From positions 1,056,001 through 1,120,000 of the forward strand of contig CP000070.1 in the NCBI GenBank assembly GCA_000002445.1: a stretch of DNA of 64,000 bases. The letters are read 5' to 3'. The notes under the pieces are model-generated. The model ran no database searches. It was not told the DNA's origin and saw nothing but the letters and a program-made list of their open reading frames with translations. The translations under genes were made by a program, and so were the position numbers. This DNA is from Trypanosoma brucei (Eukaryota). Below are positions 16,747 to 59,615 of this stretch, piece after piece. Numbering within the stretch: position 1 is the stretch's first letter; the number at the start of each line of letters is the position of its first letter.

Positions 16747-19014
16747 ATGATCCACAGCACCGCGATGCATCACTTCATCAGGACCTTCTCGTTGTGTCTG
16801 AACGTTAACTGCATTCCGCGGCTGCGATTTGGAGGGCTCACACCCGAGATTACTAATAATGTGCTGCAAGGCCCGTTGCTTACCCCGCATCGCACCTTTC
16901 TCAGAGCAGGTGCGACAACTATTCGCAAGAGTGGGAGTCGGTGTTTTTCCCACCAGCAAACATCGGCTAACTGCTCCGCGGTATCTTCGACAGAATCTGC
17001 GCAGCACTCCAGCCATGGGTTTCTTTCACCAAGCGAGTTGCTTTTCCAACTCGTTTCCCCCCACATAGCCAGTGCACCGTGTGTGTCGAGAGTTGCGCAC
17101 GTTTACAGTACCATACCCAAGTCGTTTGATGAGGTAGTGAGTAACCGCCACCTGCCACCGTCCGTAGTTGAGCATGACACGCGTCGATGGCTTCGAAATC
17201 AGTTTGGTACCCTCAGCAGTGCGCTGAGGCAGTTGCATGTTACAAACTCCACGGAACACTGGGGTATTTACATCTCGCAGGACCACGTTTACGTTGTGAA
17301 GGCCTACAGCGAGGAGGAGGCTGAGGAAGCGTTTGCAACCTTCAATGCTGTTACTCACACTTGTGATGAAAAATTCGGTGAACCATCGATTGACTGTACG
17401 TCGCGGCAGCGCACGTCGTTGTGCGAGAGGGAGAGTCTTTTGGAGGTGTTTCAGCCCGTTTTTCCGAACTTCACTCCCCCTCCGCTTCCCCCACCGTCAC
17501 AGCGGCAGCGTAGTTTTGCTGGGAAACGGAAGAAGCATGTGCCAGACGGTGTGTTCACCCCTCAAATGCTCGTTCCGTACGTTCCTACTTTCTTCGTGCC
17601 AATGTCAGAACTCCTTCAGGAGCTGCCAGAGGGATACACTGCGGAGCATATTGAAGGTCTCTTCGCAGCGACGGGGACTTTGGAAATCGTGGAGCTTGAG
17701 GGTGAGAAGTTTGTGCGGTTGCATGGTGGCAATCGGTTTTTGGATTTCACACTCGATGGAGCGGGTATTGCTGCACATGAGCGGTGGAGGGCTTACCAGC
17801 CTGACCCTTTTTTGTGCCAGTCTTTCTGCCGAATAATGTCAACCTCTGCTCATTGGGTTTCCCTTCGTGTGCTCATTATGAGGTCCCCAACCGCACTCGT
17901 CGAGGCCCTTCTGCCGTTAAGGGGCTACAAGACTTTGCTTTTCTTCGCGCAAATGCAACATGTCTTCTGTTTTACACCGAGGGGTGAGGGGGAGGTGTGC
18001 CGTGCTGCGTCTGTCACCTGTCTCTCCTACCGCGACAGTCCAACACCGGCGGTTGTGTCAGAACTTGTCGGCTTGCTCTCGGGCCAGCGAGCGTACATTA
18101 CCGATTTGCAGCGCTGTGATAAATATAACAATTCCGGATGCATTTGCATATCGGATCACGCCAAAACGCAGATAATCATGTACTATGGCACACTTATTAA
18201 TTTTTTCCGTGTCCATGGTGAGATATTTTATGTTGAGGAAGATTCCCTCGTAGGGCTCATCTCTGACAGGAAAATTACAACCAATACAACGAAAACCTTG
18301 GAGGATAAGCTGGAGGATGCACTAATGAAGAAGGATCGCCGTACAGCCCAAAAAGTACGACGCCGCATGTCACTGGAGCGAAATCCAGACAGTCCGTACA
18401 CTGACCGAGAGGTCCTATTGGACGCCATCTTGCGTTACTTGCCGAGGAACCGTTCCATTTCCCTCAATTTTCTCTTGAGGTCCTTGCCGCTCTCCTTGTC
18501 TGACTTCCTTCCTAACAAACCCCTTGCACTCTTTCAGCAAGCTCCGGAAAAGGTGCGTATTTTTGAGTACCGATACCGTCATCGATTGCATCTTATTCGT
18601 CCAGGCGTACCGCTGCCGCCTGGCGTCCTTCGAGATACGTATACAGAGCAGGAGTTGCTCTTCCTTTGCGCGGCTGAGCTCCAGCAGCAACCTCGTTTCG
18701 CCGTGGACGTTTATGGGCGCCTTCCCTACGGAGCCAAGGAGGTCATTCGCCTCCAATATAAGGGGCTTCTGGAGCTGCTGAAGCCGCATCCTCAGTACTT
18801 TACCGTGGTGTTTAAGGACTCCCTCCGTATGGATTCACGACAGGCACTCGTGACGCTCATACAAATGCCCCCATCGGTGGGCCTTACGGAGGATGACTAT
18901 GGCGCCCATGTTCCAGACGATGCTGTCCTGCAGCAACTTGAGGCAGAAGATAGGGATGCACTGGAGGCACTACCAGATGAAGTGCGAAAGACCATTCGCC
19001 AGGGTAATACTTGA
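16747..19014 (+). CDS. hypothetical protein, 755 aa
   Basis: Uninterrupted ORF from ATG 16747. Polypyrimidine-rich region 16440..16560 upstream. No recognisable catalytic motifs. Confidence 0.6.
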   Translation: MIHSTAMHHFIRTFSLCLNVNCIPRLRFGGLTPEITNNVLQGPLLTPHRTFLRAGATTIRKSGSRCFSHQQTSANCSAVSSTESAQHSSHGFLSPSELLFQLVSPHIASAPCVSRVAHVYSTIPKSFDEVVSNRHLPPSVVEHDTRRWLRNQFGTLSSALRQLHVTNSTEHWGIYISQDHVYVVKAYSEEEAEEAFATFNAVTHTCDEKFGEPSIDCTSRQRTSLCERESLLEVFQPVFPNFTPPPLPPPSQRQRSFAGKRKKHVPDGVFTPQMLVPYVPTFFVPMSELLQELPEGYTAEHIEGLFAATGTLEIVELEGEKFVRLHGGNRFLDFTLDGAGIAAHERWRAYQPDPFLCQSFCRIMSTSAHWVSLRVLIMRSPTALVEALLPLRGYKTLLFFAQMQHVFCFTPRGEGEVCRAASVTCLSYRDSPTPAVVSELVGLLSGQRAYITDLQRCDKYNNSGCICISDHAKTQIIMYYGTLINFFRVHGEIFYVEEDSLVGLISDRKITTNTTKTLEDKLEDALMKKDRRTAQKVRRRMSLERNPDSPYTDREVLLDAILRYLPRNRSISLNFLLRSLPLSLSDFLPNKPLALFQQAPEKVRIFEYRYRHRLHLIRPGVPLPPGVLRDTYTEQELLFLCAAELQQQPRFAVDVYGRLPYGAKEVIRLQYKGLLELLKPHPQYFTVVFKDSLRMDSRQALVTLIQMPPSVGLTEDDYGAHVPDDAVLQQLEAEDRDALEALPDEVRKTIRQGNT

Positions 19015-19297
19015 CAACGATGATGGTGAGGAGGCGAAAGTGATGGTGCAGGTCGACGCGGTTACTTCATAACCGAACGCAACACATTTGTAATTTTTTT
19101 TTTTATCTCTGCTTAGTGGGTTGCAGGGTGTTTGTCGTCGATGTCCGTTCTGGCGAACTGCCATTGCATTCTCGATTCCTTGTATCATCTCATCCCTTTT
19201 CCTCCCTTTTCGTGCTTCCACTATTTATGTACAAGATAATCTTCGTTATTTCACAAGCAACATACCAAATTTAAGGAAAAATAAAAGACATTCAAAC

Positions 19298-19645
19298 ATG
19301 TCCGATATCACGTACGAGAACGGTTCACCGACATACACCGGTAACACCGTCCTTAAGTGCTTCAGAGAGAATGGCAACGGCCTCCTCTTTCGCATCGTCA
19401 ATGATGAGGAGAAGAAATGGGCATTCTACAATGATACCAAGGGCTACAACATGGTGGTGAAAGTTGCTTTCGGTAAGGACAGCACTGTTCAACCCCTTGG
19501 CAACACCAAGATGGAAAAGGACACTGCTACTGGCGAATTCAAGTGCGAACTCGAAATTGCGCCGCTGGCGACTGAAATGTTCATTGAGGGAGTGCCCAAC
19601 GGATACAAAATAAACTTTGAAGCCAATCCTATTCCTCAGTCATGA
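19298..19645 (+). CDS. small protein, 115 aa, copy 1 of a tandem pair; possibly a small kinetoplastid calpain-related protein (calpain N-terminal domain only)
   Basis: ATG at 19298 (the track ORF 19121..19645 starts at TTG). Protein MSDITYENGSPTYTGNTVLKCFRENGNGLLFRIVNDEEKKW... is nearly identical to the downstream copy over about 110 codons. The SKCRP assignment rests on recollection that T. brucei carries two adjacent tiny calpain-like genes immediately upstream of its CSB-like gene; this is unverified. Confidence 0.7.
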   Translation: MSDITYENGSPTYTGNTVLKCFRENGNGLLFRIVNDEEKKWAFYNDTKGYNMVVKVAFGKDSTVQPLGNTKMEKDTATGEFKCELEIAPLATEMFIEGVPNGYKINFEANPIPQS

Positions 19646-20025
19646 GCAAGATGCGGTTATACATGCGAGTCCAGCAGATGATCGACAGTAGGAATGTAGT
19701 TAGCAGAAGAATTGATTCGCCCCATTTTTTTCCTTTTTCTCTCCTGGTTCTTTTGTTCTTGGGGGTTGCCGAAAAAATGCGCGACCCAAAGCACTTTATA
19801 CTGTTATATCAGAAGAGTTCCCCTCTGTATGCGGCGTTGGCGCTTCCATACGTTGCTGTCCGGCGCGTCGTGCATTTCTTTCTGGTGCCCAGTGTATTTT
19901 CGAGTTTTTGTATCATCTCATCCCTTCTCCTCCCTTTTCGTGCTTCCACTATTTATGTACAAGATAATCTTCGTTATTTCACAAGCAGCATACCAAATTT
20001 AAGGAAAAATAAAAGACATTCAAAC

Positions 20026-20388
20026 ATGTCCGATATCACGTACGAGAACGGTTCACCGACATACACCGGTAACACCGTCCTTAAGTGCTTCAGAGAGAAT
20101 GGCAACGGCCTCCTCTTTCGCATCGTCAATGATGAGGAGAAGAAATGGGCATTCTACAATGATACCAAGGACTACAACATGGTGGTGAAAGTTGCTTTCG
20201 GTAAGGACAGCACTGTTCAACCCCTTGGCAACACCAAGATGGAAAAGGACACTGCTACTGGCGAATTCAAGTGTGAGGTGAAAATCGCCCCCCTGGCGAC
20301 TGAAATGTTCATTGAGGGAGTGCCCAACGGATACAAAATAAGTTATGAAGCCGATCCTATTCCCCAGTGGAAATCCGTTCCCACCTAA
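20026..20388 (+). CDS. small protein, 120 aa, copy 2 of the tandem pair (paralogue of 19298..19645 with a different C-terminus)
   Basis: ATG at 20026. About 140 bp of 5' flank plus the first 110 or so codons are near-identical to copy 1. The C-terminal end diverges (…KISYEADPIPQWKSVPT versus …KINFEANPIPQS). The long track ORF 19642..20388 is an artefact of an open frame across the inter-copy region. Confidence 0.7.
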   Translation: MSDITYENGSPTYTGNTVLKCFRENGNGLLFRIVNDEEKKWAFYNDTKDYNMVVKVAFGKDSTVQPLGNTKMEKDTATGEFKCEVKIAPLATEMFIEGVPNGYKISYEADPIPQWKSVPT

Positions 20389-21267
20389 GTAAAGATATCG
20401 GGCAGTCGTGAGGAGGAAGGGAAGGGGGAAAAGAAAAGTAGTGAACACCTGTTGGTTAACTCAAGGTGAGGGGACCACATACAAAGGGAAAAGGAAATTA
20501 AGAAAGATTGTATGTTACCTTTTTTTTTTTCAAATTGTTACTCCAAATAATATGTTTATAGCCTTTTCCCTGTCATTATTTTTTTTTTGACAATTCTCTA
20601 CTTCCTTTCCTTTTCCCTTCCCCCTTGTTCTTTTTCCTCTTTTTTTTTTCCTAAATACTCGCGTGAGCGCATCACTCTCAACTAATTCGGCGAATGTTTT
20701 CTTTTTTACTTCCGGTTGATATCATTATCATTACTTATTTTAGTCTTTGTCCTTGTCCCTTTTACTTTTTGTGTGCGCATCGAACTGTAACTCAACGTTG
20801 AGCGCGAATCGAAAAAATAAAAAAAGGGGGAAGAGGAGACCACCACCACCCCCTAAAAAAAAAAAATAAACGTTAAGAAACTGGGCAAAGAGAGAGAGAG
20901 AGAAACAAACAAATATGAAGTGGAGGATAAGGGCAGCAGAATCTCACTTCTGAAGCCAATGTATGCAACGCAGTTCGGTCGTACCCTGCATTAAAAATTT
21001 TACCCATGTATTAGAGTTACATGCGCATATCTCAGAATCATGTCTTTCCACTTGTTTTGGTACTGGCCACGATTTTACGGGCGTATGTCTTTTCCTTCAC
21101 TATTTTTTTTGTTCACGTCCACACGTGTGTTCGTTTTTTCTTTACTCACGATACCGACCGGTAAGTTTTGTTGTGCCTGTGCGAGCGTTCCTACGTAGAT
21201 TTGCACATTTATCGGGTAGTGTTAGCTCTGGCGATAGCGGTTGCGTCGCCATGTCGAACTTAAACTA

Positions 21268-21368: not shown

Positions 21369-24300
21369 ATGGCAGATGAACTCTCCCAGTTGGGTGTGAA
21401 TTGGGTAGAGGAATCTTTGCTCCGTCAAGATGTAGAGGCGAATGTGGAGGCACGAGCTGATGCCGCCGCAGCTGCGGATGAGGCTGAGCTGCAAAGGCGA
21501 TGGGCAGCACTGGAGGAGGTGGAGCGCACAGTGGCTAATATTCAAGAGCAACTTTCCAAAGTCGTTGCTCCTGTGGGCACGGCAGCTCACAAAATAGTCG
21601 AGGAGAAGGAAAGCGCTTCCGTGCTACAGTTCTCCCTGCTGAAGGCACAAAGAGAGTTGGAAAGTCGTGCGAAAGCGCTCCGCAGTTGGCAGATCGAATG
21701 CGAGGCACGCCAACGGCGGCGTGTGGAAGAGGCGAAACAGCGTAAGCAAGTGACTGAGCAGGAGGCAGTTATGGCCAGAATGCGGAATCGTTTGAGTCGT
21801 ACCCTCCAGCCGGTAGCGGACGTTCAAGGACTACAAGAGGGCGTAGGGAGTGCGGAGAGGGTTCCCGCGTCGACTAACCATCACGATTACCACGATCGCC
21901 TCACCACGGGCATGGGCTCGACACCTCAGGTGTGGTGGAATGGGAGAATAGGCACACCTAATGGAGCTGCAAGTGTGACTCACTCGAACATTTCAACGCC
22001 TTCGCGACGTCAACGCCTGTCATCGTCAACTTCTGCCGATGTGCCATTAACTCCTGCACAGTATTCCTGCGGCCCCGTTCTTCCATCAGCTTATCGAGTG
22101 ACGCTGACGCCAAGCGATGTCCGCTCCAAGTTGCAGAAATACGCAGATGACAGCGACTTAAGCATTTACAGCGCGCGGTGCCGCAAGCGGAAGCGGCTAG
22201 AAGGAGCTTTAGCGGGTCTAGCAGCGTTAGAAGCTGGAGTGGCCACTGCCAACGGCGAGATCAAGGAGGAGGATACCGATGAAGACTCGGGGGTTGTGGT
22301 GAAGTGTGAGGGTATTGGCATGAGTAGTTTCCCCAAAGTGAAGACAGAGGGTAGCGCACATGAGAAAAGTGGAACCTCATTGCTGGATGCCATAGATGTC
22401 GATGCGCTCATGGAGGAGTCTGATGATGTGGCTGTTGAAGTGCTCCAAAAAGTTAAGAAGGAAAAAAGGGCATCAGCAGGCGGTAGAAAGCACCGGGAGA
22501 GGGAAAATACCACGCAAAACTTTACGGACAGGCATGATTCCATTGAAGTCTTGCGTGGTATTTCTTTGGCATCATCCATTTATCAAAAATTGTTCGACCA
22601 CCAACGGGACGGATTGAGGTGGCTGCTGAATCTTCACCGACAGCGTGTCGGTGGGATTCTGGGAGATGACATGGGACTCGGGAAAACTATTCAAATAGCA
22701 GCCATGTTAAATGCCCTAAATCATTCCAACCAACTTCGTGGACCCTCTCTAATTGTTACACCGGTCACAGTGCTCCGTCAGTGGGTGGCAGAGATGCACC
22801 GATGGGCTCCATACGTGCGTACCTGTGTTATGCATGCCAGTAGTGCTTCCACTATTTCTCGCGAAAAGCTCATTGATTCGGTTCGAGGCACTCCAGCAGT
22901 GCTCTTAACAACCTATGCGGCCGTTCGTGAGCACTGCCGGTTGCTTCACAACGCATGTTTTCAGTATGTTATTCTTGACGAGGGGCACAAGATTAGCAAC
23001 CCGGAGGCTACTGTCACAATTGCTGCCAAGTCGTTTCCCACACCCCACCGGCTCATCCTCTCTGGAACCCCTGTGCAAAATACACTCAAGGAACTGTGGT
23101 GCCTGTTTGACTTCGTTAAACCAGGCCTACTGGGTACGTTGCGGAGGTTCGAGGAAGAGTTTGAGGTGCCAATCAACGCCAGTAAGAATATTCGGGCGTC
23201 ACCTCTCGCTTTGGCCACAGCCGCCGAGACTGCGCGGGTGCTGCACGAGAGCATCTCCCCGTTTTTACTACGTCGACTGAAGAAGCAAGTGATGAGCGAT
23301 TCTTTACCGGAGAAATACGAACGTGTTATTCGGTGCCCACTCAGTGATTCCCAATTAGAGGCGTATGTTGACCTCTTAAGTTCATCACGCGTGCAGAGGT
23401 TGATGAGTAACACCCTGTCATACACCCAGTTAATGGGTGGGTTGGACCGTGACGGGCGGGATGCAAGTGGTTGTCTGCACATCGCTGGCAAGCGGTTCCA
23501 GTTGATGCGTGATAAAGAAAACAAAGGCGTTGTTCGGCATGAGCTGTTTTGCGTGATGCACGAGTTGCGACAAATATGCAATCACGTGGATATCTTTCAC
23601 ATGCGACAAGCAAAGGACTTCAACTACACCGACGATATGGAAAACAACTTCTTTCTCGATGTTGTGAATGCCCCTACCGCCACTGCAAGGAAAGCGGGTG
23701 GAAAAGGCACGACACATTTTTCGATGCGCAGTAACAGGCCGGTAAATTATGAAGGTAGCAGTAAACTTCAAACTCTTAGACAGCTGCTGAAGTTGTGGCA
23801 ACGGGGTGGACAGCGTGCGCTGGTCTTCTCCCAGACGCGTGCCATGCTAGATATTATTGAAAATATGTGTGAACAAGAGAGCCTTACATATATCCGCATG
23901 GATGGTACCACCAATAGCTTACGACGGCAGGAACTCATGGATCGTTTCAACGAGGATGACAGAATCGTGGTGGCGCTGCTTACCACACGTGTGGGTGGCG
24001 TTGGGGTGAACTTAATTGGTGCTGACCGAGTTGTGATATTTGACCCTGACTGGAATCCGGTGACGGATGAGCAGGCGCGTGAGCGGGCGTGGCGAATTGG
24101 GCAAACACGCGATGTGGGTGTTTATCGTCTCATTTCTAGCGGAACAGTGGAGGAGGCGGTGTTGCGACGGCAACTTGCCAAGACGTATGTGACCGAGAAA
24201 GTTCTGCACGATCCAAAACTTCAACGTTTCTTCTACGAGCAAGGTAGTCTATCAGAGTCGTTCTACCTTGGCGTCGAGTATGACAGCCGGGTGCCACTAG

Positions 24301-24749
24301 GGAAGAAGCACATCGTCGCTGCACAAGAACTGTTTCCACTTTTAAAGGAAGAACACAATAATGAGGAGGTATTTGCGCTAACAGCGGTTGGGCATGAGCG
24401 GAGAATCCGAGGGACTGAGGAAGAATCAGGTGGGGCTTCTGTGAGGGCGAAGTCAGAAACAGAAAAAACTGCTGCTGCTTCCGTGTATCGGGTATGTGCT
24501 CCACGGGAGCTTTTTCCTTCTGCCACCACAACGTCACGAACATCTTCTTCCAACATATCTGAGACGTCATTGCTTCAGGATCTCGTTGACGGCAATCATG
24601 TGCGGATCTCTGGTGTTGACAGCACAGCACAGCGACTCGCGTGTACGTCAGCGTCCCATGCAATGTTGCGTGTGTCGAATGTCATCCGCACGTTCGAACA
24701 TCAGACACAAGAGGCATTTGCGAGGCTTCCCAGGGTGGAGGGATCGTAA
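21369..24749 (+). CDS. SNF2-family DNA-dependent ATPase, ERCC6/CSB (Rad26)-like, about 1126 aa
   Basis: The track start at 21339 is TTG; the first ATG is at 21369 (MADELSQ…). SNF2 motifs: GGILGDDMGLGKT (Walker A, motif I), VILDEGHKISN (DEGH, motif II), LSGTPVQN (III), and a helicase-C region LVFSQTRAMLDII / RVGGVGVNLIGADRVVIFDPDWNP / ARERAWRIGQTRDVGVYRL (V-VI). An N-terminal coiled-coil/acidic region and the overall length fit CSB/Rad26 better than Rad54. Confidence 0.85.
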   Translation: MADELSQLGVNWVEESLLRQDVEANVEARADAAAAADEAELQRRWAALEEVERTVANIQEQLSKVVAPVGTAAHKIVEEKESASVLQFSLLKAQRELESRAKALRSWQIECEARQRRRVEEAKQRKQVTEQEAVMARMRNRLSRTLQPVADVQGLQEGVGSAERVPASTNHHDYHDRLTTGMGSTPQVWWNGRIGTPNGAASVTHSNISTPSRRQRLSSSTSADVPLTPAQYSCGPVLPSAYRVTLTPSDVRSKLQKYADDSDLSIYSARCRKRKRLEGALAGLAALEAGVATANGEIKEEDTDEDSGVVVKCEGIGMSSFPKVKTEGSAHEKSGTSLLDAIDVDALMEESDDVAVEVLQKVKKEKRASAGGRKHRERENTTQNFTDRHDSIEVLRGISLASSIYQKLFDHQRDGLRWLLNLHRQRVGGILGDDMGLGKTIQIAAMLNALNHSNQLRGPSLIVTPVTVLRQWVAEMHRWAPYVRTCVMHASSASTISREKLIDSVRGTPAVLLTTYAAVREHCRLLHNACFQYVILDEGHKISNPEATVTIAAKSFPTPHRLILSGTPVQNTLKELWCLFDFVKPGLLGTLRRFEEEFEVPINASKNIRASPLALATAAETARVLHESISPFLLRRLKKQVMSDSLPEKYERVIRCPLSDSQLEAYVDLLSSSRVQRLMSNTLSYTQLMGGLDRDGRDASGCLHIAGKRFQLMRDKENKGVVRHELFCVMHELRQICNHVDIFHMRQAKDFNYTDDMENNFFLDVVNAPTATARKAGGKGTTHFSMRSNRPVNYEGSSKLQTLRQLLKLWQRGGQRALVFSQTRAMLDIIENMCEQESLTYIRMDGTTNSLRRQELMDRFNEDDRIVVALLTTRVGGVGVNLIGADRVVIFDPDWNPVTDEQARERAWRIGQTRDVGVYRLISSGTVEEAVLRRQLAKTYVTEKVLHDPKLQRFFYEQGSLSESFYLGVEYDSRVPLGKKHIVAAQELFPLLKEEHNNEEVFALTAVGHERRIRGTEEESGGASVRAKSETEKTAAASVYRVCAPRELFPSATTTSRTSSSNISETSLLQDLVDGNHVRISGVDSTAQRLACTSASHAMLRVSNVIRTFEHQTQEAFARLPRVEGS

Positions 24750-53481: not shown

Positions 53482-54387
53482 ATGTTGATGAACTTCGGGG
53501 GCTCCTACGATGCCTACATAAATAACTTCCAAGGTACCTTTCTTGCGGAGTGGATGTTGGATCATCCATCGGTTCCTTACATCGCAGGCGTCATGTATCT
53601 CATTCTTGTACTCTACGTACCGAAAAGCATTATGGCGAGTCAACCGCCCCTCAATCTTAGGGCCGCCAACATCGTGTGGAATCTGTTTCTGACATTATTT
53701 TCAATGTGCGGCGCGTATTACACCGTTCCGTACCTCGTGAAAGCGTTCATGAATCCTGAAATTGTCATGGCAGCCTCGGGGATAAAATTAGACGCAAACA
53801 CCTCACCAATAATCACACATAGTGGTTTCTATACCACCACGTGCGCTTTGGCTGATAGCTTTTACTTCAACGGTGATGTGGGTTTCTGGGTTGCACTTTT
53901 TGCCCTGTCAAAGATCCCTGAAATGATTGACACGGCCTTTCTTGTCTTCCAAAAGAAGCCGGTTATTTTTCTACACTGGTACCATCACCTCACTGTGATG
54001 CTTTTCTGTTGGTTTGCCTACGTGCAGAAAATTTCCAGCGGTCTGTGGTTTGCCTCCATGAACTATTCTGTCCACTCCATCATGTACTTGTACTACTTTG
54101 TATGTGCCTGCGGTCACCGTCGCCTCGTCCGTCCATTCGCTCCGATAATTACATTTGTGCAAATATTTCAGATGGTGGTGGGTACGATTGTTGTGTGTTA
54201 CACGTACACTGTAAAGCATGTGTTGGGAAGGAGCTGCACAGTAACAGACTTCTCTCTTCATACTGGTTTGGTAATGTATGTGAGTTACCTGCTTCTTTTT
54301 TCGCAGCTCTTCTACCGCAGCTATCTCAGTCCGAGGGATAAGGCCAGTATTCCACACGTAGCAGCGGAAATAAAGAAAAAAGAGTAA
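53482..54387 (+). CDS. ELO-family fatty-acid elongase (3-ketoacyl-CoA synthase), copy a of three in tandem, about 301 aa
   Basis: The track start at 53434 is TTG; the first ATG is at 53482. All four ELO signature boxes are present: SKIPEMIDT (KxxExxDT), LHWYHHLT (HxxHH), HSIMYLYYF (HxxMYxYY), ITFVQIFQM (TxxQxxQ). Multiple TM helices. C-terminal K-rich tail KKKE (ER-retention-like). Confidence 0.88.
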   Translation: MLMNFGGSYDAYINNFQGTFLAEWMLDHPSVPYIAGVMYLILVLYVPKSIMASQPPLNLRAANIVWNLFLTLFSMCGAYYTVPYLVKAFMNPEIVMAASGIKLDANTSPIITHSGFYTTTCALADSFYFNGDVGFWVALFALSKIPEMIDTAFLVFQKKPVIFLHWYHHLTVMLFCWFAYVQKISSGLWFASMNYSVHSIMYLYYFVCACGHRRLVRPFAPIITFVQIFQMVVGTIVVCYTYTVKHVLGRSCTVTDFSLHTGLVMYVSYLLLFSQLFYRSYLSPRDKASIPHVAAEIKKKE

Positions 54388-55706
54388 ATGAAAGAATGGG
54401 GAGTTTAGTGGAGGATGGGGAAGAGCACGCACGCGTGTCTGCTCACGTGCTTATGTGTTTTGACAATGTTGAAGGTAAAAAGAAAAGAAGGAAAATGAGA
54501 AGAGTGATGGGTGGTGTTCGTCGCAGGCATGATCTGTGGCGTGTCCCTGCACTTGGTTCGATTTATTGCATTGGTTTCATTTCCTTTTCTCTTTTTTTTG
54601 TTCATAAAAAAATGCACACGCACGCAGTCGCACGCTCAGCTGTTCGCTTCGGTTGCTTGCTACTCCCCTACCATATTGTTTTTTGTGTGTGTATTTTGCA
54701 GTTGTAACTTCCACCTTCCCTTACTTTCACTTTGGGATGAACCAAAAAATAAAGGAAACGAAAATAAAAACGAAAAAAAGGAACATATATATATATATAT
54801 ATGCTAAATGTCATACGAGTTATTTAGCGCATACACACAAAGAGGTGTGTGTGTGTGTATTGGTAGGGCAATAATGCATCACCGTATCCCTCAAGCAATT
54901 CTACTCTGTTGACTCCATTCCTCCTCTCCTATCTTTTTTTACCCTTGTTTATTTTTCTCTTTTGAGGGACCGAACAAAAAAAAAATACGACAGTCACTTC
55001 TGAATAAGCAGCATTGTGGCAACGTATATTTTTTGTGTTCTTTTTTGTCCCCTTTAGCTCCCCTATTTTTCCACAGGGACACTTTGTTTCCTTCCTCCTT
55101 CGCACATACGGTAAACATACATACATACATACACATGTACACACAAACACATATTATATTATATATATATATATATATATATAATATGAGTGTGTGCCGT
55201 TGTGCGTGTGAAGGTTCGCTCACAGATATCCCTCAAACGTTAAACTCCCGTATTAAACGGTGGAAGAAAACAATATAAAAAAAGGGGAAGGGAGTCCAAC
55301 CGCGTAATATTGGGCGTAATAAATGTAGTGTGGCCAATCTTTCGTTTGTTTCAGTTCTTGTCACAAAATTAGTCTCTCTCCTTTCTTCTTCCTTCTTCAC
55401 CTACTCTTGCGGATATATACATGTGCGTACAAATGCACGCGGGTATATATGAATATTTGTTTGAGTCGTTCTGGTATTGAAAAGGTTACGACAGCAAACG
55501 ATACTTTTTAACAGAAAATAAATACGCTGAACGACTCGATTTATTAGTGAGGGTTGAGTGCATACAAATATACAAAAGTAGGTAAAAATATATTTAAATA
55601 TAAATATATATATATATATATATATCAACTCACAGAGCCTTTCTGGTGAGAAGGAAGCGTATTCGGTTAACAGAAATTAAACGAATAGTGGCGTAAGTGC
55701 GACGAG

Positions 55707-56522
55707 ATGTTTCCATACGTCACAGACTATAGCGGTTTTGCTATCAGGAAATGGATGATTGATAATGTGGATGTTGCCGGCTTCCTTTGCCTCTTGTATC
55801 TTGGGCTTGTGTGGAAGGGACCAGGCGTCGTGAAGAGCCTCAGAGAAAAGAATTTAATCAATGCAACACTTCTTCAGGGCGTTTTTATTATGTGGAATCT
55901 CTTTTTGTCCACCTTTTCCGTCATCGGAATGATCGTCGTTGTTCCCGCCGCTATTGCACACATCAGCAACAAGGGACTTGTTCCCGCTCTTTGCGAGAGG
56001 GATGTAAACATGATTTACGACTCTCCCGTCGGTTTCTGGGTTGGTGTGTTTGCGTTGTCAAAAATACCGGAATTGTTTGACACGGTTCTTCTTGTTTTGC
56101 AGGGGAAACAACCTCCGTTCCTTCATTGGTATCACCACACCACCGTGTTAATCTTCTCTTGGCAAAGCTACTGCGAGGGAAGTAGTACCATATTTGTCTT
56201 TGTTGCCATGAACCTGACGGTACATGCCGTCATGTACTTTTACTTCGCCATGTGTGCCAGTGGATTCAAGGCGATTATGCGAACCATTGCTCCGGTTATT
56301 ACAATTATGCAAATTTTGCAGATGATAGTTGGCAGCGCTGTAACAATGTACTCCGCATATGTACTTTACAATCCTCAACCTGATGGGCCACAGACTTGCG
56401 ATGTGACAAAAGCAAGCGCTCGGATGGGAGTGGTGATGTATTTGAGTTATTTGTACCTCTTCGCTGCGCTGTTTGTTGAGTCATACCTGAAACCAAAAAA
56501 GAGGACCGAAAAGTCGAAATGA
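55707..56522 (+). CDS. ELO-family fatty-acid elongase, copy b, 271 aa
   Basis: ATG at 55707. Signature boxes SKIPELFDT, LHWYHHTT, HAVMYFYFA, ITIMQILQM. C-terminal KPKKRTEKSK. Confidence 0.88.
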   Translation: MFPYVTDYSGFAIRKWMIDNVDVAGFLCLLYLGLVWKGPGVVKSLREKNLINATLLQGVFIMWNLFLSTFSVIGMIVVVPAAIAHISNKGLVPALCERDVNMIYDSPVGFWVGVFALSKIPELFDTVLLVLQGKQPPFLHWYHHTTVLIFSWQSYCEGSSTIFVFVAMNLTVHAVMYFYFAMCASGFKAIMRTIAPVITIMQILQMIVGSAVTMYSAYVLYNPQPDGPQTCDVTKASARMGVVMYLSYLYLFAALFVESYLKPKKRTEKSK

Positions 56523-58440
56523 AGTACGGGACGGTAAAGAAAACAACAACGGGGTAATTTTTTTTTGTTTTTTCTTGTTTGTTTGTTGTAGAAACGTGGG
56601 TAACCGGGGAGGGGATGAGGGGGAGAAACGCCACTGGCACGGGACTAATGAACTAACGCCTTTTTATTTATTTATTTATTACCCTCTTCCCTTTTGTTTT
56701 TGGGAATGGAGGGGAAGAAGAAAACCATAACGCGATGCGTCGCAGCGTTTCGGTATGCGAGGAAGAGAGAGGGGAAAAACAAAAAGGAGCAGACAATTTT
56801 GAATGGCAGGGATGAGGGAAGAAAAAACAGTTTGGCACGTTCGACTGTTTTAATACTCGCTATTGAAACGAAAAAAAAAAATAAAAGAAAAGACAAACAA
56901 GCGCGCAAGTAAAATTAAGACCCAAACTGAGCAGGACGGAGCAAATTTTCCAAAACAAAAAATTACCTTGTGAGGAATCACAACTGATATGCGAGCAATC
57001 GGAAGGGAAAAGCAAAAGGAAAATTTGTGCGTGAAGGAGGGCATAACAATGAAGTAAATGCCAAGAAAGAAAGGAAAAAGAAAAAGAACAAAGTAGATAC
57101 TTACAATACAATACAAAAAAAAAGTAGGAAAACAGATGGCTTGAATGTATTATTTCTTCCGATGCGTTATTTTCCCCCTCTCCATGGTCCCCGTTTATGT
57201 CCTCTCAACTTACCGCTACCACGAGCCCAATAATTTATAAACAAAGCTCGTGGCATATGTGTATGTATGTGTATGTGTATATGTGCGTATGTATGTATGC
57301 ATGCATAATTATTTTTGCATTCATATGGACGCATATAAACGCATATACACATGTTTCTTTTTTTTTTTGTTTCGCCTTCTAAATCCCCTCCCCACTTTGG
57401 GGGGGGGGGAGAGTAGTGGTTTTATTTCGTTTCGTTTTAGTTTTTTATCATTTTTTTTAAATATAATAATTTCATATTTATCTCGTAATTATTTTATTTT
57501 TCGTAGTTGTTGTGTTTGTTTCCTCATTTATTCACAACCAATCACTCTCTTCGTTATATTTTTGGTTGCTTTTGACGACTACTTTACTACAATCATTATT
57601 ATTATTATCATTATTGTTCCTTCTTTTTCTTTTTTGTGTTATTATTTCAAAAAAATTGTAATAAAATAAACATTCACGCTACTTCGTGGTTGTTCACTCA
57701 TGAGAATGTTCTCATGAATATCGCAGCGGATTTGTTTGTCTATTAATTTTTTTTTCACCTTTTTAATTTCTCTCCTCATTTCTCTCTACACTCAATCACC
57801 TTATATTCCACTACTTTAGCCGTTTAGTGAAATCATATGACTAAATAAGCGCATTGACGTGAGCGTGAGCTGAAAGTGCTTTGTATATAATAAAAAAAAA
57901 AGAAAAAAGGCGCGGTTTTTAAAAAAAAAAATAGATAAATAAAATAATTCATCTGTCGATGAGAAATGGGAAATGTTTTCTGCCGTGGGGAGCTGATGCC
58001 GACGCCAATGGAAAACAGCCGGTTGACTCCGTCTAAAAACTTAATCGTGGCTATTTTATTTTTTTGTAACTTTAATTGCAACTTGAGGCTGTTGGAGTTA
58101 CTGGTGCATAATGAAGTGATACACGAAGGAGAGACGGATTATATTCTTCTTATCTGTAATGTCTTATGGGTGGTTTTTTTTTTGGGGGGGATAATACTGT
58201 AAAAGGAAAGCATAGGTGACGCACATTTTTGCGCCGTTGGTGTTGTTGTTCTTGTTGAGTGTAAATGTAAAATTATTTTCCAGAAATGGGGTGCTGCTGT
58301 GGGTTGTCGTGACAAACACTTCCTAACTTAATTATGATAATGCCAAACACTAGCAGGGATTGTGGAAGTTACAATCGGAAGGCCGATTCGTGTTTAACTC
58401 GATGAATATTATGTAAATGTGATGTTCGCCGTGTTTAAAC

Positions 58441-58522
58441 TTCTTCGTTTCTCCCTTCAGTACGCTCATTTGTTGTTTTCTGTGTCCGGTTTTTTTTCCT
58501 GTTTTGTTTGCCTCCTTCAACC
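58441..58522 (+). promoter_or_regulatory. polypyrimidine tract upstream of ELO copy c
   Basis: ttcttcgtttctcccttcAGtacgctcatttgttgttttctgtgtccggttttttttcctgttttgtttgcctccttcaacc. Several candidate AG acceptors. Confidence 0.4.
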
Positions 58523-58697
58523 TGGACGTTTGCGCGCCCACTCACATACACGATAGTGAAGAAAAGGCATACAAAAAGAGTAAAAAAAATAAATAAAAGA
58601 AGTAAGGGAAAGTAAAGGAAAAAAAAAGAGGTAGCGTGTGCATCGAGTTCGACTGCGTCAAGAAAACCGGAATATAATACATCCTTAAGCACGACAA

Positions 58698-59615
58698 ATG
58701 TTTTTTACTCCTCCACAACTTCAGAAGCTTGAGCAGGACTGGAATGGGCTCGCAGTGCGTGATTGGATGATTGCCAATGTGGATGTTGTGTTGTACATCT
58801 CTTTCCTCTACCTTGGATTCGTATTTATTGGCCCAAAATTGTTCGCTAAGCTTGTTGGCACAAACCCGGCCGCTGCTGCTGCTGGAGCCCGAAGCGCTGA
58901 CGGCACCGGCTCTCCAATCGTTCGCCGGTCGATGGTTGTGTGGAATTTGGCGCTTTCAATTTTCTCCATCTTCGGCACAAGCACTGTGACGCCTGTACTT
59001 CTGCGTAACCTTGCCAATAAGGGGTTCTACGGTGCCACCTGTGACTTCAAGGAAACGGAATTTTACACAACAAATGTTGGATTCTGGATGGGTATTTTCG
59101 CTCTTTCAAAGATACCGGAGCTTGTTGACACGATATTCCTCGTGTTGCAGGGCAAACAGGAGTTGCCTTTCCTTCATTGGTATCACCATGTGACAGTTCT
59201 GTTGTTCTCATGGCACACGTACTGTGTAGGGAGTAGCGCATACATTTGGGTGGCCGCTATGAATTACTCCGTACATTCCGTCATGTACCTTTACTTCGCC
59301 CTTGCAGCATTAGGATACAAACGCGTAGTTCGCCCACTTGCGCCGTACATCACAATTATACAGATACTACAAATGGTTGTGGGTTGTTATGTGACTATTT
59401 TTGCACTTCAGGAGTTGCATGGGGAGGGGGGTCGCGGATGTGGTGTGTCGCCAGCGAACATGCGCATTCAATTGGTGATGTACGCCAGTTATTTGTACCT
59501 CTTCTCGAAGATGTTTGTGGCGTCGTACATTCGACCCCCCAAGCGCCCGACTGTTGGCGGTCCCTCCTCAACAGCCGGCGTCAGCAACGGTTCTGTCGAG
59601 AAGAAAGTTAAATAA
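58698..59615 (+). CDS. ELO-family fatty-acid elongase, copy c, 305 aa, with Ala/Gly-rich loop insertion between the first two TM helices
   Basis: ATG at 58698. Signature boxes SKIPELVDT, LHWYHHVT, HSVMYLYFA, ITIIQILQM. Insertion GTNPAAAAAGARSADGTGSPIV at roughly nt 58860..58925. Polypyrimidine tract 58441..58522 upstream. Confidence 0.88.
   Translation: MFFTPPQLQKLEQDWNGLAVRDWMIANVDVVLYISFLYLGFVFIGPKLFAKLVGTNPAAAAAGARSADGTGSPIVRRSMVVWNLALSIFSIFGTSTVTPVLLRNLANKGFYGATCDFKETEFYTTNVGFWMGIFALSKIPELVDTIFLVLQGKQELPFLHWYHHVTVLLFSWHTYCVGSSAYIWVAAMNYSVHSVMYLYFALAALGYKRVVRPLAPYITIIQILQMVVGCYVTIFALQELHGEGGRGCGVSPANMRIQLVMYASYLYLFSKMFVASYIRPPKRPTVGGPSSTAGVSNGSVEKKVK

What the first reader, a model, noticed from the sequence alone, without database searches (positions are those of the whole stretch)
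19160..20388. Tandem mini-gene pair homogenised over 5' flank plus most of the CDS, but with divergent C-termini and 3' UTRs
The two 115/120-codon genes, with ATGs at 19298 and 20026, are nearly identical from about 125 bp upstream of the ATG through codon 110 or so. They differ by one G/D substitution and a few UTR SNPs. They then diverge: …ELEIAPL…KINFEANPIPQS stop versus …EVKIAPL…KISYEADPIPQWKSVPT stop. Their downstream sequences are unrelated. This is a gene-conversion tract with a sharp 3' boundary. In trypanosomes, where regulation is largely 3'-UTR-driven, it gives two almost identical proteins under potentially different post-transcriptional control. From memory, the T. brucei locus upstream of its CSB gene holds two tiny calpain-related SKCRP genes reported as bloodstream-form up-regulated. 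These ORFs may be those genes.
Basis: partly seen in the sequence, partly recalled or inferred. Interest (0 to 1): 0.5.

Follow-up and report, generated by a model that had tools for sequence, protein, structure and literature searches.

The report
Tandem SKCRP genes kept alike by conversion
These are the two known, adjacent SKCRP7.1/7.2 genes of Trypanosoma brucei chromosome 7, which recurrent gene conversion keeps almost identical at the front while their protein tails and 3' UTRs stay different; this is a clear but ordinary example of how trypanosome tandem genes evolve.

Summary
A 480-nt ungapped direct repeat (19161-19640 vs 19889-20368, 95.4% identical) contains two DUF1935-only ORFs of 115 and 120 aa. 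They match T. b. brucei TREU927 AAZ12470 and AAZ12471 exactly (Tb927.7.4060/4070, SKCRP7.1/7.2), just upstream of TbCSB. The repeat is a mosaic. The core (splice signal, 5' UTR, codons 1-82) has 3 mismatches in 366 nt and no synonymous differences. Codons 83-89 differ at 6 of 7 third positions. Codons 90-105 are identical. The ends are diverged and the 3' flanks are unrelated. T. congolense has the same 114/120-aa pair and shares the copy-2 markers (D49, Y107, stop-loss tail), yet 13 residues group by species. The duplication is therefore old and the identity comes from gene conversion. In T. b. gambiense and T. b. equiperdum, copy 1 carries the copy-2 base at all four core differences. Gene identity, array and expression were already published, and the conversion pattern follows the PGK precedent. 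Interest is low to moderate.

The parts
19161..19640 (+). Repeat copy 1 (480 nt)
   Evidence: Ungapped alignment to 19889-20368, 95.4% identity
19889..20368 (+). Repeat copy 2 (480 nt)
19180..19545 (+). Core homogenised tract of copy 1 (partner 19908-20273): polypyrimidine tract, predicted splice acceptor, 5' UTR and codons 1-82
   Evidence: 3 mismatches in 366 nt in TREU927 (19199, 19260, 19443). In T. b. gambiense and T. b. equiperdum, copy 1 has the copy-2 base at all three, and also at 19179
19193..19235 (+). Polypyrimidine run 19193-19211 and first downstream AG at 19234-19235: predicted trans-splice acceptor of copy 1, giving a predicted 62-nt 5' UTR. The equivalent in copy 2 is 19921-19939 with AG at 19962-19963
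   Evidence: Pattern search. This is a prediction; no mapped splice site was retrievable
19298..19645 (+). CDS of Tb927.7.4060 (SKCRP7.1), 115 aa, DUF1935 only, ancestral-type C-terminus ...NFEANPIPQS
   Evidence: Pfam PF09149 at 142 bits. Exact match to AAZ12470.1/XP_846029.1. The copy-specific peptide CELEIAPLATEMFIEGVPNGYK was detected by MS
20026..20388 (+). CDS of Tb927.7.4070 (SKCRP7.2), 120 aa, DUF1935 only
   Evidence: Pfam PF09149 at 144 bits. Exact match to AAZ12471.1. Array 58a spans chr7:1075298-1076388, which equals window 19298-20388
19546..19564 (+). Divergent patch, codons 83-89 (partner 20274-20292): 8 mismatches in 19 nt, 6 of 7 third positions differ
   Evidence: This is as diverged as between species (0.43-0.86)
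19565..19613 (+). Second identical block, codons 90-105 (partner 20293-20341)
   Evidence: 0 mismatches in 49 nt. It contains V99, which is derived in both T. brucei copies relative to T. congolense and T. vivax
20368..20388 (+). Stop-loss C-terminal extension of copy 2 (TGG AAA TCC GTT CCC ACC TAA = WKSVPT*)
   Evidence: T. vivax has CAG TGA AAA where copy 2 has CAG TGG AAA. T. congolense copy 2 ends PIPQWRPGPL
19646..19812 (+). 3' UTR of copy 1, 167 nt, with a tightly defined poly(A) site lying 109 nt upstream of the copy-2 polypyrimidine run
   Evidence: Kolev 2010 Table S13: major PAS at chr7:1075812, 167 nt, dispersion 2.09. Position relative to the PPT
20389..21198 (+). 3' UTR of copy 2, major form 810 nt (mean 684, dispersed), unrelated in sequence to the copy-1 UTR
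   Evidence: Kolev 2010 Table S13: major PAS at chr7:1077198, 810 nt, dispersion 129. No similarity to the copy-1 flank
20577..20584 (+). UA(U)6 motif (candidate RBP10 site) in the copy-2 3' UTR; a second one lies at 21101-21108; none in the copy-1 UTR
   Evidence: 2 vs 0; shuffle P = 0.004. Motif function from PMC5568443. Binding was not tested here
16747..19014 (+). Upstream neighbour, 755-aa protein with no Pfam domain, syntenic in other trypanosomes
21369..24749 (+). Downstream neighbour TbCSB (Tb927.7.4080), SNF2-family helicase, 1126 aa from the ATG at 21369
   Evidence: Pfam SNF2-rel_dom and Helicase_C. Annotated as 1126 aa in other strains. TbCSB gene ID from PMC4138998

Best explanation
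The region is the two-gene tandem array Tb927.7.4060/Tb927.7.4070 (SKCRP7.1/SKCRP7.2) of T. brucei chromosome 7. Each gene encodes a protein made only of the kinetoplastid calpain N-terminal domain (DUF1935). Neither has a protease core or an acylation signal.

The duplication predates the T. brucei / T. congolense split. Since then, recurrent non-reciprocal recombination (gene conversion) between the copies has repeatedly overwritten the 5' part of the unit: the polypyrimidine tract and splice acceptor, the 5' UTR and codons 1-82. A separate short patch (codons 90-105) has also been overwritten. Conversion has not crossed into codons 83-89, the last ~10 codons or the 3' UTR.

Copy 2 additionally lost its stop codon (TGA to TGG) in the common ancestor of T. 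brucei and T. congolense, which added a six-residue tail.

The result is two proteins that are identical over about 80% of their length, expressed from mRNAs with the same 5' end but with 3' UTRs of 167 and about 810 nt. Trypanosome genes are transcribed polycistronically and controlled mainly through their 3' UTRs, so the copies are regulated differently. SKCRP7.2 is the more abundant mRNA and is enriched in procyclic forms. SKCRP7.1 protein is about equal in long-slender bloodstream and procyclic forms.

What is shown: the anatomy, gene identity, synteny, the cross-species pattern, and the published UTR and expression values. What is inferred: that conversion rather than another homogenising process is responsible, that the 3' UTRs cause the expression difference, and (weakest) that the two UA(U)6 motifs in the copy-2 UTR act through RBP10.
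For: Identity and naming:
- DUF1935 full-length, 142 and 144 bits, and no other Pfam hit.
- Exact matches to TREU927 AAZ12470.1 and AAZ12471.1 on the 2.2-Mb chromosome.
- Jackson 2007 array 58a coordinates match with an offset of 1,056,000.
- TbCSB = Tb927.7.4080 lies downstream.
- PDB relatives are L. major SMP-1 2FE0 (E = 2.4e-28) and 1R75.

Conversion:
- Core 3/366 vs tail 13/95 mismatches, p = 1.9e-7; longest clean run p = 5e-4.
- Third-position differences between the copies: 0/82 in codons 1-82, 6/7 in codons 83-89, 0/16 in codons 90-105.
- 118 nt of non-coding 5' flank are also homogenised.
- The T. congolense pair is adjacent and in the same short-long order (CCC91514 114 aa, CCC91515 120 aa). 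Thirteen columns group by species; G49/D49, F107/Y107 and the W[KR]..P. tail group by copy.
- At 19179, 19199, 19260 and 19443, copy 1 of T. b. gambiense and T. b. equiperdum carries the copy-2 base, whereas G49 in TREU927 copy 1 matches T. congolense copy 1 and T. vivax.

Generality: the same plan (short 5' flank + CDS homogenised, remaining 3' flank unique) is seen in T. cruzi (633 nt, 98.9%), L. donovani (510 nt, 99.8%) and at the last copy of the 12-copy T. melophagium array.

Stop-loss: T. vivax CAG TGA AAA vs copy 2 CAG TGG AAA.

Regulation:
- 3' UTRs of 167 vs 810 nt, and 23.4 vs 60.7 RNAs per procyclic cell.
- 82 vs 1247 (total) and 180 vs 4248 (polysomal) counts in stumpy forms.
- SILAC protein LS/PC of 1.07 for 4060 vs 0.37 for 4070.
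- Liu 2010, as reviewed, found SKCRP7.2 differentially expressed in procyclic forms.
- UA(U)6 motifs: 2 in UTR2, 0 in UTR1; RBP10 biology.
Against: - T. congolense DNA could not be retrieved, so the cross-species test rests on protein sequences. Only two internal columns plus the tail group by copy.
- The four strain differences could in principle be new mutations in the TREU927 lineage. Their density (about 1.3%) is not above the intergenic background between strains.
- The expression numbers come from different studies and methods. Spliced-leader tags start inside the homogenised tract, so those values are probably not independent for the two genes. Most tryptic peptides are shared between the proteins.
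- No experiment links either 3' UTR to the expression difference.
- UA(U)6 is short and trypanosome UTRs are U-rich, so two occurrences are weak evidence.
Confidence: 0.85

Rival explanations
1. A recent tandem duplication specific to T. brucei. The copies are alike simply because they are young, and the 3' ends differ because the duplication breakpoint fell inside the gene or because the ends evolved quickly.
For: T. vivax has a single copy at the syntenic site in two assemblies. The near-identity of the core would fit a young duplicate.
Against: T. congolense has the same short+long pair with shared copy-2 markers. Codons 83-89 differ at 6/7 third positions, as much as between species. A young duplicate cannot be both saturated in one patch and identical around it.
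Confidence: 0.04
2. Homogenisation by repeated unequal crossing-over (cycles of array contraction and expansion) rather than by gene conversion without crossover.
For: Copy number at this locus clearly changes among lineages: 1 in T. vivax; 2 in T. brucei, T. congolense, T. cruzi and L. donovani; 12 in T. melophagium. Internal T. melophagium units are homogenised over the whole 747-nt period.
Against: In T. brucei and T. congolense the two-copy state, with a copy-specific tail on the distal gene, has persisted since before their split while the 5' part was homogenised. The mosaic of identical, saturated and identical segments within 120 nt fits short conversion tracts or patchy heteroduplex repair, not whole-unit exchange.
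Confidence: 0.08
3. Strong purifying selection on sequence, without any recombination, keeps the 5' part identical.
For: The protein is highly conserved: 73-88% identity across trypanosomatids.
Against: Selection on the protein does not explain 0/82 synonymous differences when species differ at 49-60% of third positions. It also does not explain the identity of 118 nt of non-coding flank, or the 13 species-specific substitutions present in both copies.
Confidence: 0.02
4. Assembly or annotation artefact, such as a collapsed or duplicated repeat in the reference.
For: Repeats do disturb assemblies here. The T. equiperdum OVI contig begins 20 nt before copy 2, and the DAL972 annotation fuses both genes into a 361-aa 'low quality protein'.
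Against: Three independent assemblies are colinear through both copies and both distinct 3' flanks. Separate poly(A) sites have been mapped, and a peptide unique to copy 1 has been detected.
Confidence: 0.01

Closest known systems
T. brucei phosphoglycerate kinase array (PGKA/B/C; Le Blancq et al. 1988, as cited and summarised in Jackson 2007, PMC1855330)
   Same: Both are tandem paralogs in a polycistronic unit that are partly homogenised by gene conversion. In both, one copy carries a distinct C-terminal extension, non-coding flanks differ, and the isoforms are stage-specific (the details of the PGKC extension and its 3'-UTR control are from my own knowledge).
   Different: PGK has three genes encoding an enzyme, and its extension is a known glycosome-targeting signal. 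Here there are two 13-kDa domain-only proteins. The six-residue tail arose by stop-codon loss and has no known function.
Tandem arrays with 'mixed dynamics' in Jackson 2007 (e.g. Tb105a, Tb109c, Tb24)
   Same: Most copies evolve in concert, while a terminal copy with a distinct C-terminus and unalignable UTRs retains orthology across species. The pair itself is listed in that paper's supplementary table as array 58a.
   Different: In the Jackson examples the divergent copy as a whole escapes concerted evolution. Here the boundary runs through the gene, so one and the same copy is concerted in its 5' four-fifths and orthology-retaining in its 3' end. The pair is not mentioned in the main text or the held supplements beyond that table entry.
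Leishmania small myristoylated proteins (SMP-1, PDB 2FE0) and L. donovani SKCRP14.1
   Same: They share the single-domain DUF1935 architecture and size. SMP-1 matches at E = 2.4e-28. The syntenic L. donovani genes are 73% identical and also form a converted pair upstream of the SNF2 gene. One Leishmania ortholog is named 'small myristoylated protein-3' by its source.
   Different: SMP-1 is N-myristoylated and palmitoylated and is a flagellar membrane protein. The T. brucei proteins start MSDIT with no Gly2, so they cannot be N-myristoylated. That SKCRP14.1 (a drug-induced cell-death modulator) is the syntenic L. donovani gene is my inference from the chromosome number and contig size; it was not tested.

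Membership tests
SKCRP (group 3 kinetoplastid calpain-related proteins, Ersfeld et al. 2005) | Consists only of the kinetoplastid-specific calpain N-terminal domain (domain I-K / Pfam DUF1935) | tested here: met
   PF09149 covers residues 6-112 of 115 and 6-111 of 120 at 142 and 144 bits, and no other family scores at E <= 1.
SKCRP (group 3 kinetoplastid calpain-related proteins, Ersfeld et al. 2005) | Encoded in a kinetoplastid genome; identity with the named genes SKCRP7.1/7.2 on T. brucei chromosome 7 | tested here: met
   Exact protein matches to TREU927 AAZ12470.1 and AAZ12471.1. Coordinates equal Jackson array 58a on chr 7. Tb927.7.4070 is cited to Liu 2010 as a tip protein, and SKCRP7.2 is listed from the same reference. 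Assigning 7.1 to 4060 and 7.2 to 4070 follows gene order and was not read in the original paper, which is not held.
SKCRP (group 3 kinetoplastid calpain-related proteins, Ersfeld et al. 2005) | N-terminal dual acylation motif (optional: 'may display') | tested here: not met
   Both proteins begin MSDITYENG with no Gly at position 2. The motif is optional for the group, so membership stands.
Calpain, peptidase family C2 (as the database name 'calpain-like cysteine peptidase' implies) | CysPc catalytic core with the Cys-His-Asn triad | tested here: not met
   No Peptidase_C2 hit even at E <= 1, and the proteins are only 115 and 120 aa. They are not peptidases, so the database name is misleading.
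Small myristoylated proteins (SMP family, Leishmania) | N-terminal myristoylation (Gly2), with or without palmitoylation, driving membrane association | tested here: not met
   No Gly2. The domain is homologous to SMP-1, but the defining lipid anchor signal is absent.
Concerted evolution by gene conversion | Paralogs within a species are more alike than orthologs between species, although the duplication predates the speciation | tested here: met
   Thirteen species-grouping columns, against copy-specific D49, Y107 and the stop-loss tail shared by T. brucei and T. congolense. This is at the protein level only, because T. congolense DNA was not obtainable.
Concerted evolution by gene conversion | Differences between the copies are significantly clustered, with silent sites and flanking non-coding DNA homogenised inside the tract | tested here: met
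   Fisher p = 1.9e-7; run-length p = 5e-4; 0/82 vs 6/7 third positions; 118 nt of 5' flank included.
Concerted evolution by gene conversion | Tracts segregating within the species (evidence that the process is ongoing) | tested here: inconclusive
   All 4 core differences in TREU927 are absent in T. b. gambiense and T. b. equiperdum, where copy 1 has the copy-2 base. G49 looks ancestral for copy 1. Only three assemblies were compared, and new mutations in TREU927 are not formally excluded.
RBP10-regulated procyclic-specific mRNAs | UA(U)6 motif in the 3' UTR and physical binding and repression by RBP10 in bloodstream forms | tested here: inconclusive
   The motif is present twice in the copy-2 UTR and absent from the copy-1 UTR.

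The most novel reading that the evidence does not exclude
The pair is not a lineage-specific curiosity but an ancient two-gene module, in which near-identical DUF1935 proteins are expressed from unrelated 3' UTRs. On this reading the module has been maintained since before Trypanosoma and Leishmania split. Gene conversion keeps the protein uniform, and selection holds the conversion boundary so that each copy keeps its own regulatory 3' end. T. brucei would then preserve, in codons 83-89, a relic of the original divergence: an 'L-type' patch in copy 1, as in Leishmania, T. congolense and T. melophagium, and a 'V-type' patch in copy 2, as in T. vivax and T. cruzi. The stop-loss tail of copy 2 would be a later functional specialisation, for example for flagellar-tip residence in procyclic forms.
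Probability: 0.2. Interest if true: 0.45.

Novelty: new member of a known kind. Interest (0 to 1): 0.25.

Why it matters
The practical consequences are modest but real.

- **Reagents and data.** The two genes cannot be told apart by probes, RNAi fragments, spliced-leader tags or most peptides taken from the first 82 codons. Published stage-regulation values, RNAi phenotypes and localisations for Tb927.7.4060/4070 are only copy-specific when they rest on codons 83-120 or the 3' UTRs.
- **A natural experiment.** The pair has the same splice signal, 5' UTR and most of the CDS, but 167-nt and 810-nt 3' UTRs. That makes it a convenient system for studying 3'-UTR control in trypanosomes.
- **Conversion tracts.** The locus gives a compact, datable example of a conversion boundary inside a gene, with a likely conversion tract segregating among T. 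brucei subspecies.
- **Annotation.** 'Calpain-like cysteine peptidase' is misleading because there is no protease domain, and the fused 361-aa DAL972 gene model is an artefact.

None of this changes current understanding of trypanosome genome evolution.

Tried and rejected
- **T. congolense DNA.** Exact look-ups of both proteins found no encoding contig, so the ortholog/paralog test could only be done on proteins.
- **Primary papers and supplements not held.** Liu et al. 2010, the primary SKCRP expression and localisation paper, is not held, so I relied on reviews and citing papers. The supplements of Siegel 2010 and Butter 2013 are not held either.
- **Mapped splice-acceptor sites.** The two gene IDs do not occur in the stored (truncated) Kolev tables S4/S12, so the splice sites given here are predictions.
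- **Residual homology between the two 3' flanks, or between either flank and the T. vivax 3' flank.** Local alignment scores were within or barely above the shuffled range. Rejected.
- **Further copies or relics of the unit elsewhere in the 64-kb window.** None found by blastn or tblastn.
- **N-terminally extended 248-aa isoform of copy 2.** This is ORF 19642-20388, and the spacer has no stop in that frame. The single supporting peptide in Gunasekera Table S9 has a 3.9-Da mass error and low ion scores. In T. b. equiperdum the open frame upstream of copy 2 stops short of that ATG. In T. cruzi and T. vivax only 6-7 in-frame codons upstream of the ATG are open. I do not accept it as a gene.
- **Bacterial-type promoter/terminator scan.** Nothing above shuffles, and in any case inapplicable to a trypanosome.
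- **Other 3'-UTR motifs.** PUF9 UUGUAC, AUUUA, UAUUUAU, (UAU)3 and the UGUA core showed no enrichment in either UTR.
- **Structure prediction.** Not run. Two solved homologs already exist, and the tool returns no coordinates with which to map the copy-specific residues.
Full report
**What is in the sequence**

The window carries an ungapped direct repeat, 19161-19640 vs 19889-20368. It is 480 nt long with 458 identities (95.4%) and a period of 728 nt. Each copy contains a small ORF: ATG 19298 to stop at 19643-19645 (115 aa), and ATG 20026 to stop at 20386-20388 (120 aa). No further copy or relic exists in the 64-kb window.

The 22 mismatches are strongly clustered:

| Segment (copy-1 coordinates) | Content | Mismatches |
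|---|---|---|
| 19164-19179 | ragged 5' edge | 6 |
| 19180-19545 | core, 366 nt | 3 (19199, 19260, 19443) |
| 19546-19564 | codons 83-89 | 8 in 19 nt |
| 19565-19613 | codons 90-105 | 0 in 49 nt |
| 19614-19640 | end of CDS | 5 in 27 nt |

Beyond these points the flanks do not align better than shuffled sequence. Core versus tail gives Fisher p = 1.9e-7, and the longest clean run (182 nt) has a permutation p of 5e-4. Codons 1-82 have no synonymous difference and one replacement (G49/D49). Codons 83-114 have six synonymous and five replacement codon differences. The one refinement is that the sharp boundary lies between codons 82 and 83, and the 3' portion is a mosaic rather than uniformly similar up to about codon 110.

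**What the genes are**

Both proteins are full-length matches to Pfam DUF1935 (142 and 144 bits against a cut-off of 27), and nothing else scores even at E <= 1. DUF1935 is the kinetoplastid-specific N-terminal domain of calpain-like proteins. [quoted passage not shown]

- Both sequences are exact matches to T. brucei brucei TREU927 AAZ12470.1/XP_846029.1 (115 aa) and AAZ12471.1 (120 aa), on a 2,205,233-bp contig.
- Jackson's 2007 catalogue of T. brucei tandem arrays lists '58a, calpain-like cysteine peptidase, chromosome 7, 2 copies, 348-363 bp, 1075298-1076388'. That equals window 19298-20388 with an offset of 1,056,000. The same offset reproduces the published poly(A) coordinates.
- The genes are Tb927.7.4060 and Tb927.7.4070. 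Proximity proteomics, TrypTag and Liu et al. 2010 place them at the flagellum tip plus cytoplasm, and SKCRP7.2 is listed as a flagellar-tip protein from the same source.
- The downstream 1126-aa SNF2 helicase (ATG at 21369) is TbCSB, Tb927.7.4080.
- Solved relatives are L. major SMP-1 (2FE0, E = 2.4e-28) and 1R75.

The proteins have no CysPc domain and no Gly2. They are therefore neither peptidases nor myristoylated SMPs, despite the database names.

**Is the identity due to gene conversion?**

The comparative evidence says yes.

- *Synteny and copy number.* The locus between the conserved ~750-aa gene and CSB holds one DUF1935 gene in T. vivax in two assemblies. It holds two in T. brucei subspecies, two in T. 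cruzi, two in L. donovani and twelve in T. melophagium. T. congolense IL3000 has two entries with consecutive accessions, 114 aa then 120 aa.
- *Species versus copy grouping.* Aligning the T. brucei and T. congolense pairs gives 13 columns between positions 2 and 99 in which both copies of a species share a residue that differs from the other species. The long copies of both species share D49 (against G49 in the short copies and in T. vivax), Y107 (against F107) and a six-residue tail beginning with W after PIPQ.
- *Origin of the tail.* The tail is a stop-codon loss. T. vivax reads CAG TGA AAA where T. brucei copy 2 reads CAG TGG AAA TCC GTT CCC ACC TAA.
- *Conclusion on age.* The duplication and the stop-loss thus predate the T. 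brucei / T. congolense split. Species-specific substitutions shared by both copies must then have been spread from one copy to the other.
- *Silent sites.* Third positions differ at 0/82 in codons 1-82 and 0/16 in codons 90-105 between the two T. brucei copies, against 0.49-0.75 between species. In codons 83-89 they differ at 6/7, as much as between species. Selection on the protein cannot produce that pattern, nor can it explain the identity of 118 nt of upstream non-coding DNA.

**Is it still going on?**

In T. b. gambiense DAL972 and a T. b. equiperdum chromosome assembly, copy 1 carries the copy-2 base at 19179, 19199, 19260 and 19443. These are all the positions at which the TREU927 copies differ in or at the edge of the core. 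The distinct 3' flanks are retained colinearly in both assemblies. G49 (19443 G) in TREU927 copy 1 is also the state of T. congolense copy 1 and of T. vivax. The simplest reading is therefore a copy-2-to-copy-1 conversion of at least 265 nt that segregates within T. brucei. With three assemblies this remains suggestive rather than proven.

**The same plan elsewhere**

- In T. cruzi the unit is 633 aligned nt at 98.9% identity. It covers about 190 nt of 5' flank, the whole CDS (identical) and 75-95 nt of 3' flank.
- In L. donovani it is 510 nt at 99.8% identity (93 nt 5', the CDS, 69 nt 3') within a 2733-nt period.
- In T. melophagium the eleven internal units are near-identical over the whole period. 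Homology starts 125 nt upstream of the first ATG and ends 4 nt after the last stop, so the last gene again has its own 3' flank.

T. brucei and T. congolense are special only in that the boundary has moved into the coding region and copy 2 has acquired a tail.

By contrast, the three ELO (fatty-acid elongase) genes in the same window (53482-59615) share no DNA repeat of 100 nt or more. Homogenisation is therefore a property of this array and not of the region.

**How it most likely works**

The homogenised tract begins at the polypyrimidine run (19193-19211 in copy 1, 19921-19939 in copy 2) and the first downstream AG (19234/5 and 19962/3). The predicted 5' UTR is 62 nt in both copies (prediction only). 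The two mRNAs should therefore be trans-spliced identically and share their 5' UTR and first 82 codons.

Their 3' ends have been mapped. The copy-1 3' UTR is 167 nt with a tight poly(A) site (window 19812), 109 nt upstream of the copy-2 polypyrimidine run, as expected for coupled polyadenylation and trans-splicing. The copy-2 3' UTR has a major form of 810 nt (window 21198) with dispersed sites.

Published abundances differ between the copies:

| Measurement | 4060 | 4070 | Source |
|---|---|---|---|
| RNAs per procyclic cell | 23.4 | 60.7 | |
| Stumpy total counts | 82 | 1247 | |
| Stumpy polysomal counts | 180 | 4248 | |
| SILAC protein, long-slender/procyclic | 1.07 | 0.37 | |
| SILAC protein, procyclic/stumpy | 2.07 | 7.93 | |

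A peptide unique to copy 1, spanning the divergent patch, was detected. The spliced-leader-trapping ratios in the same table are almost the same for both genes (0.25 vs 0.23, 0.83 vs 0.89, 4.80 vs 4.82). I attribute this to the tags lying inside the homogenised tract; that is an inference. A review of Liu et al. 2010 likewise reports SKCRP7.2 as differentially expressed in procyclic forms.

Everything upstream of codon 83 is the same in the two genes, so the difference must map to the 3' end of the CDS, the 3' UTR or genomic position. The 3' UTR is the usual determinant in trypanosomes (established knowledge). The copy-2 UTR contains two UA(U)6 motifs (20577, 21101) and the copy-1 UTR contains none. 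RBP10 binds this motif in procyclic-specific mRNAs and represses them in bloodstream forms. I offer this as a testable step at roughly 30% confidence.

**Why the boundary sits where it does**

This was not established. Either of two explanations would fit, and both are inferences: the dense heterology at codons 83-89 blocks heteroduplex extension (mismatch-repair-dependent rejection is known in T. brucei, from my own knowledge), or selection removes convertants that lose the copy-specific C-terminus. The separate identical block at codons 90-105 contains V99, which is derived in both T. brucei copies. It shows that short independent tracts or patchy repair also occur.

**Comparison with what is known**

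The genes, their domain content, their localisation, their tandem arrangement, their UTR lengths and their stage regulation are all already in the literature or databases. Partial homogenisation of tandem paralogs by gene conversion, with terminal copies keeping distinct C-termini and UTRs, is a documented feature of T. brucei arrays. The PGK genes are the classical case.

I did not find the following described for this pair:
- the exact mosaic of the tract;
- the shared stop-loss tail that dates the duplication to before the T. brucei / T. congolense split;
- the apparent segregating tract among T. brucei subspecies;
- the recurrence of the same plan at the syntenic locus in T. cruzi, Leishmania and T. 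melophagium.

I therefore class it as a new, well-documented member of a known kind, of low to moderate interest.

**Verdict**

The best explanation, recurrent gene conversion over the 5' four-fifths of an old two-gene SKCRP array with 3'-end-specific regulation, has confidence 0.85. Interest is 0.25.

Noticed in passing
window 19642-20388: The 384-nt spacer between the two genes has no stop codon in the frame of copy 2 (the other frames have 4 and 5; shuffle P = 0.0008). This gives a 248-aa ORF that starts at an ATG overlapping the copy-1 stop. Gunasekera 2012 Table S9 lists one peptide from it (HFILLYQKSSPLYAALALPYVAVR), but with a 3.9-Da mass error and low ion scores. In T. b. equiperdum the open frame stops short of that ATG, and in T. 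cruzi and T. vivax only 6-7 in-frame codons upstream of the ATG are open. It is probably chance plus a false identification. Copy 1 also has 68-85 open in-frame codons upstream.
   Followed up: partly
L005 4001-5088 (T. b. gambiense DAL972, FN554970.1): The 361-aa 'LOW QUALITY PROTEIN: calpain-like cysteine peptidase' fuses both SKCRP genes and the spacer into one model. The copy-1 stop codon (TCA TGA) is intact in that assembly, and the locus does not translate to the deposited protein. It is an annotation artefact.
   Followed up: yes
L004 1-383 (T. equiperdum OVI, CZPT02001500.1): The contig begins 20 nt upstream of the copy-2 ATG, so the assembly breaks inside the repeat. It also has runs of N in the copy-2 3' UTR.
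   Followed up: partly
L009 1272-9841 (T. melophagium JAJSEB010000022.1): The syntenic locus holds a 12-copy array of 114-aa DUF1935 genes with a period of about 747 nt. The CDSs differ by 0-2 nt, and the first and last units are the most divergent. This is a large copy-number expansion compared with 1-2 copies in other species.
   Followed up: partly
window 53482-59615: Three tandem ELO (GNS1/SUR4) fatty-acid elongase genes, Jackson array 59, lie in the same window. All are strong PF01151 matches but share no direct DNA repeat of 100 nt or more. This array has not been homogenised, in contrast to the SKCRP pair.
   Followed up: partly
window 20518-20652 (and 20889-20903): The mapped 810-nt 3' UTR of copy 2 contains a dense cluster of long polypyrimidine runs (14, 10, 10, 26 and 25 nt) followed by an AG at 20666, which looks like a strong internal trans-splice signal. 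A (GA)n run and long A-runs lie further downstream. This could underlie the dispersed poly(A) sites or an unannotated transcript.
   Followed up: no
codon 85 of the DUF1935 genes (window 19550-19552 / 20278-20280): The Leu/Val difference between the T. brucei copies mirrors a dimorphism across species. Leu occurs in T. congolense, T. melophagium and Leishmania; Val occurs in T. vivax, T. cruzi, T. conorhini and T. rangeli. In this 21-nt patch copy 1 is closest to L. donovani (p = 0.14) and copy 2 is closest to T. vivax (p = 0.29). The patch is too short to distinguish an ancient two-type origin from homoplasy.
   Followed up: no
PMC3694164 supplementary file 7, row Tb927.7.4070: The row carries a flag 'BSF' in a column I did not decode. 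The text says that 13 of the 31 polysome-enriched stumpy transcripts have a bloodstream fitness defect in the RIT-seq RNAi screen. Any RNAi fragment from the first 82 codons would hit both copies.
   Followed up: no
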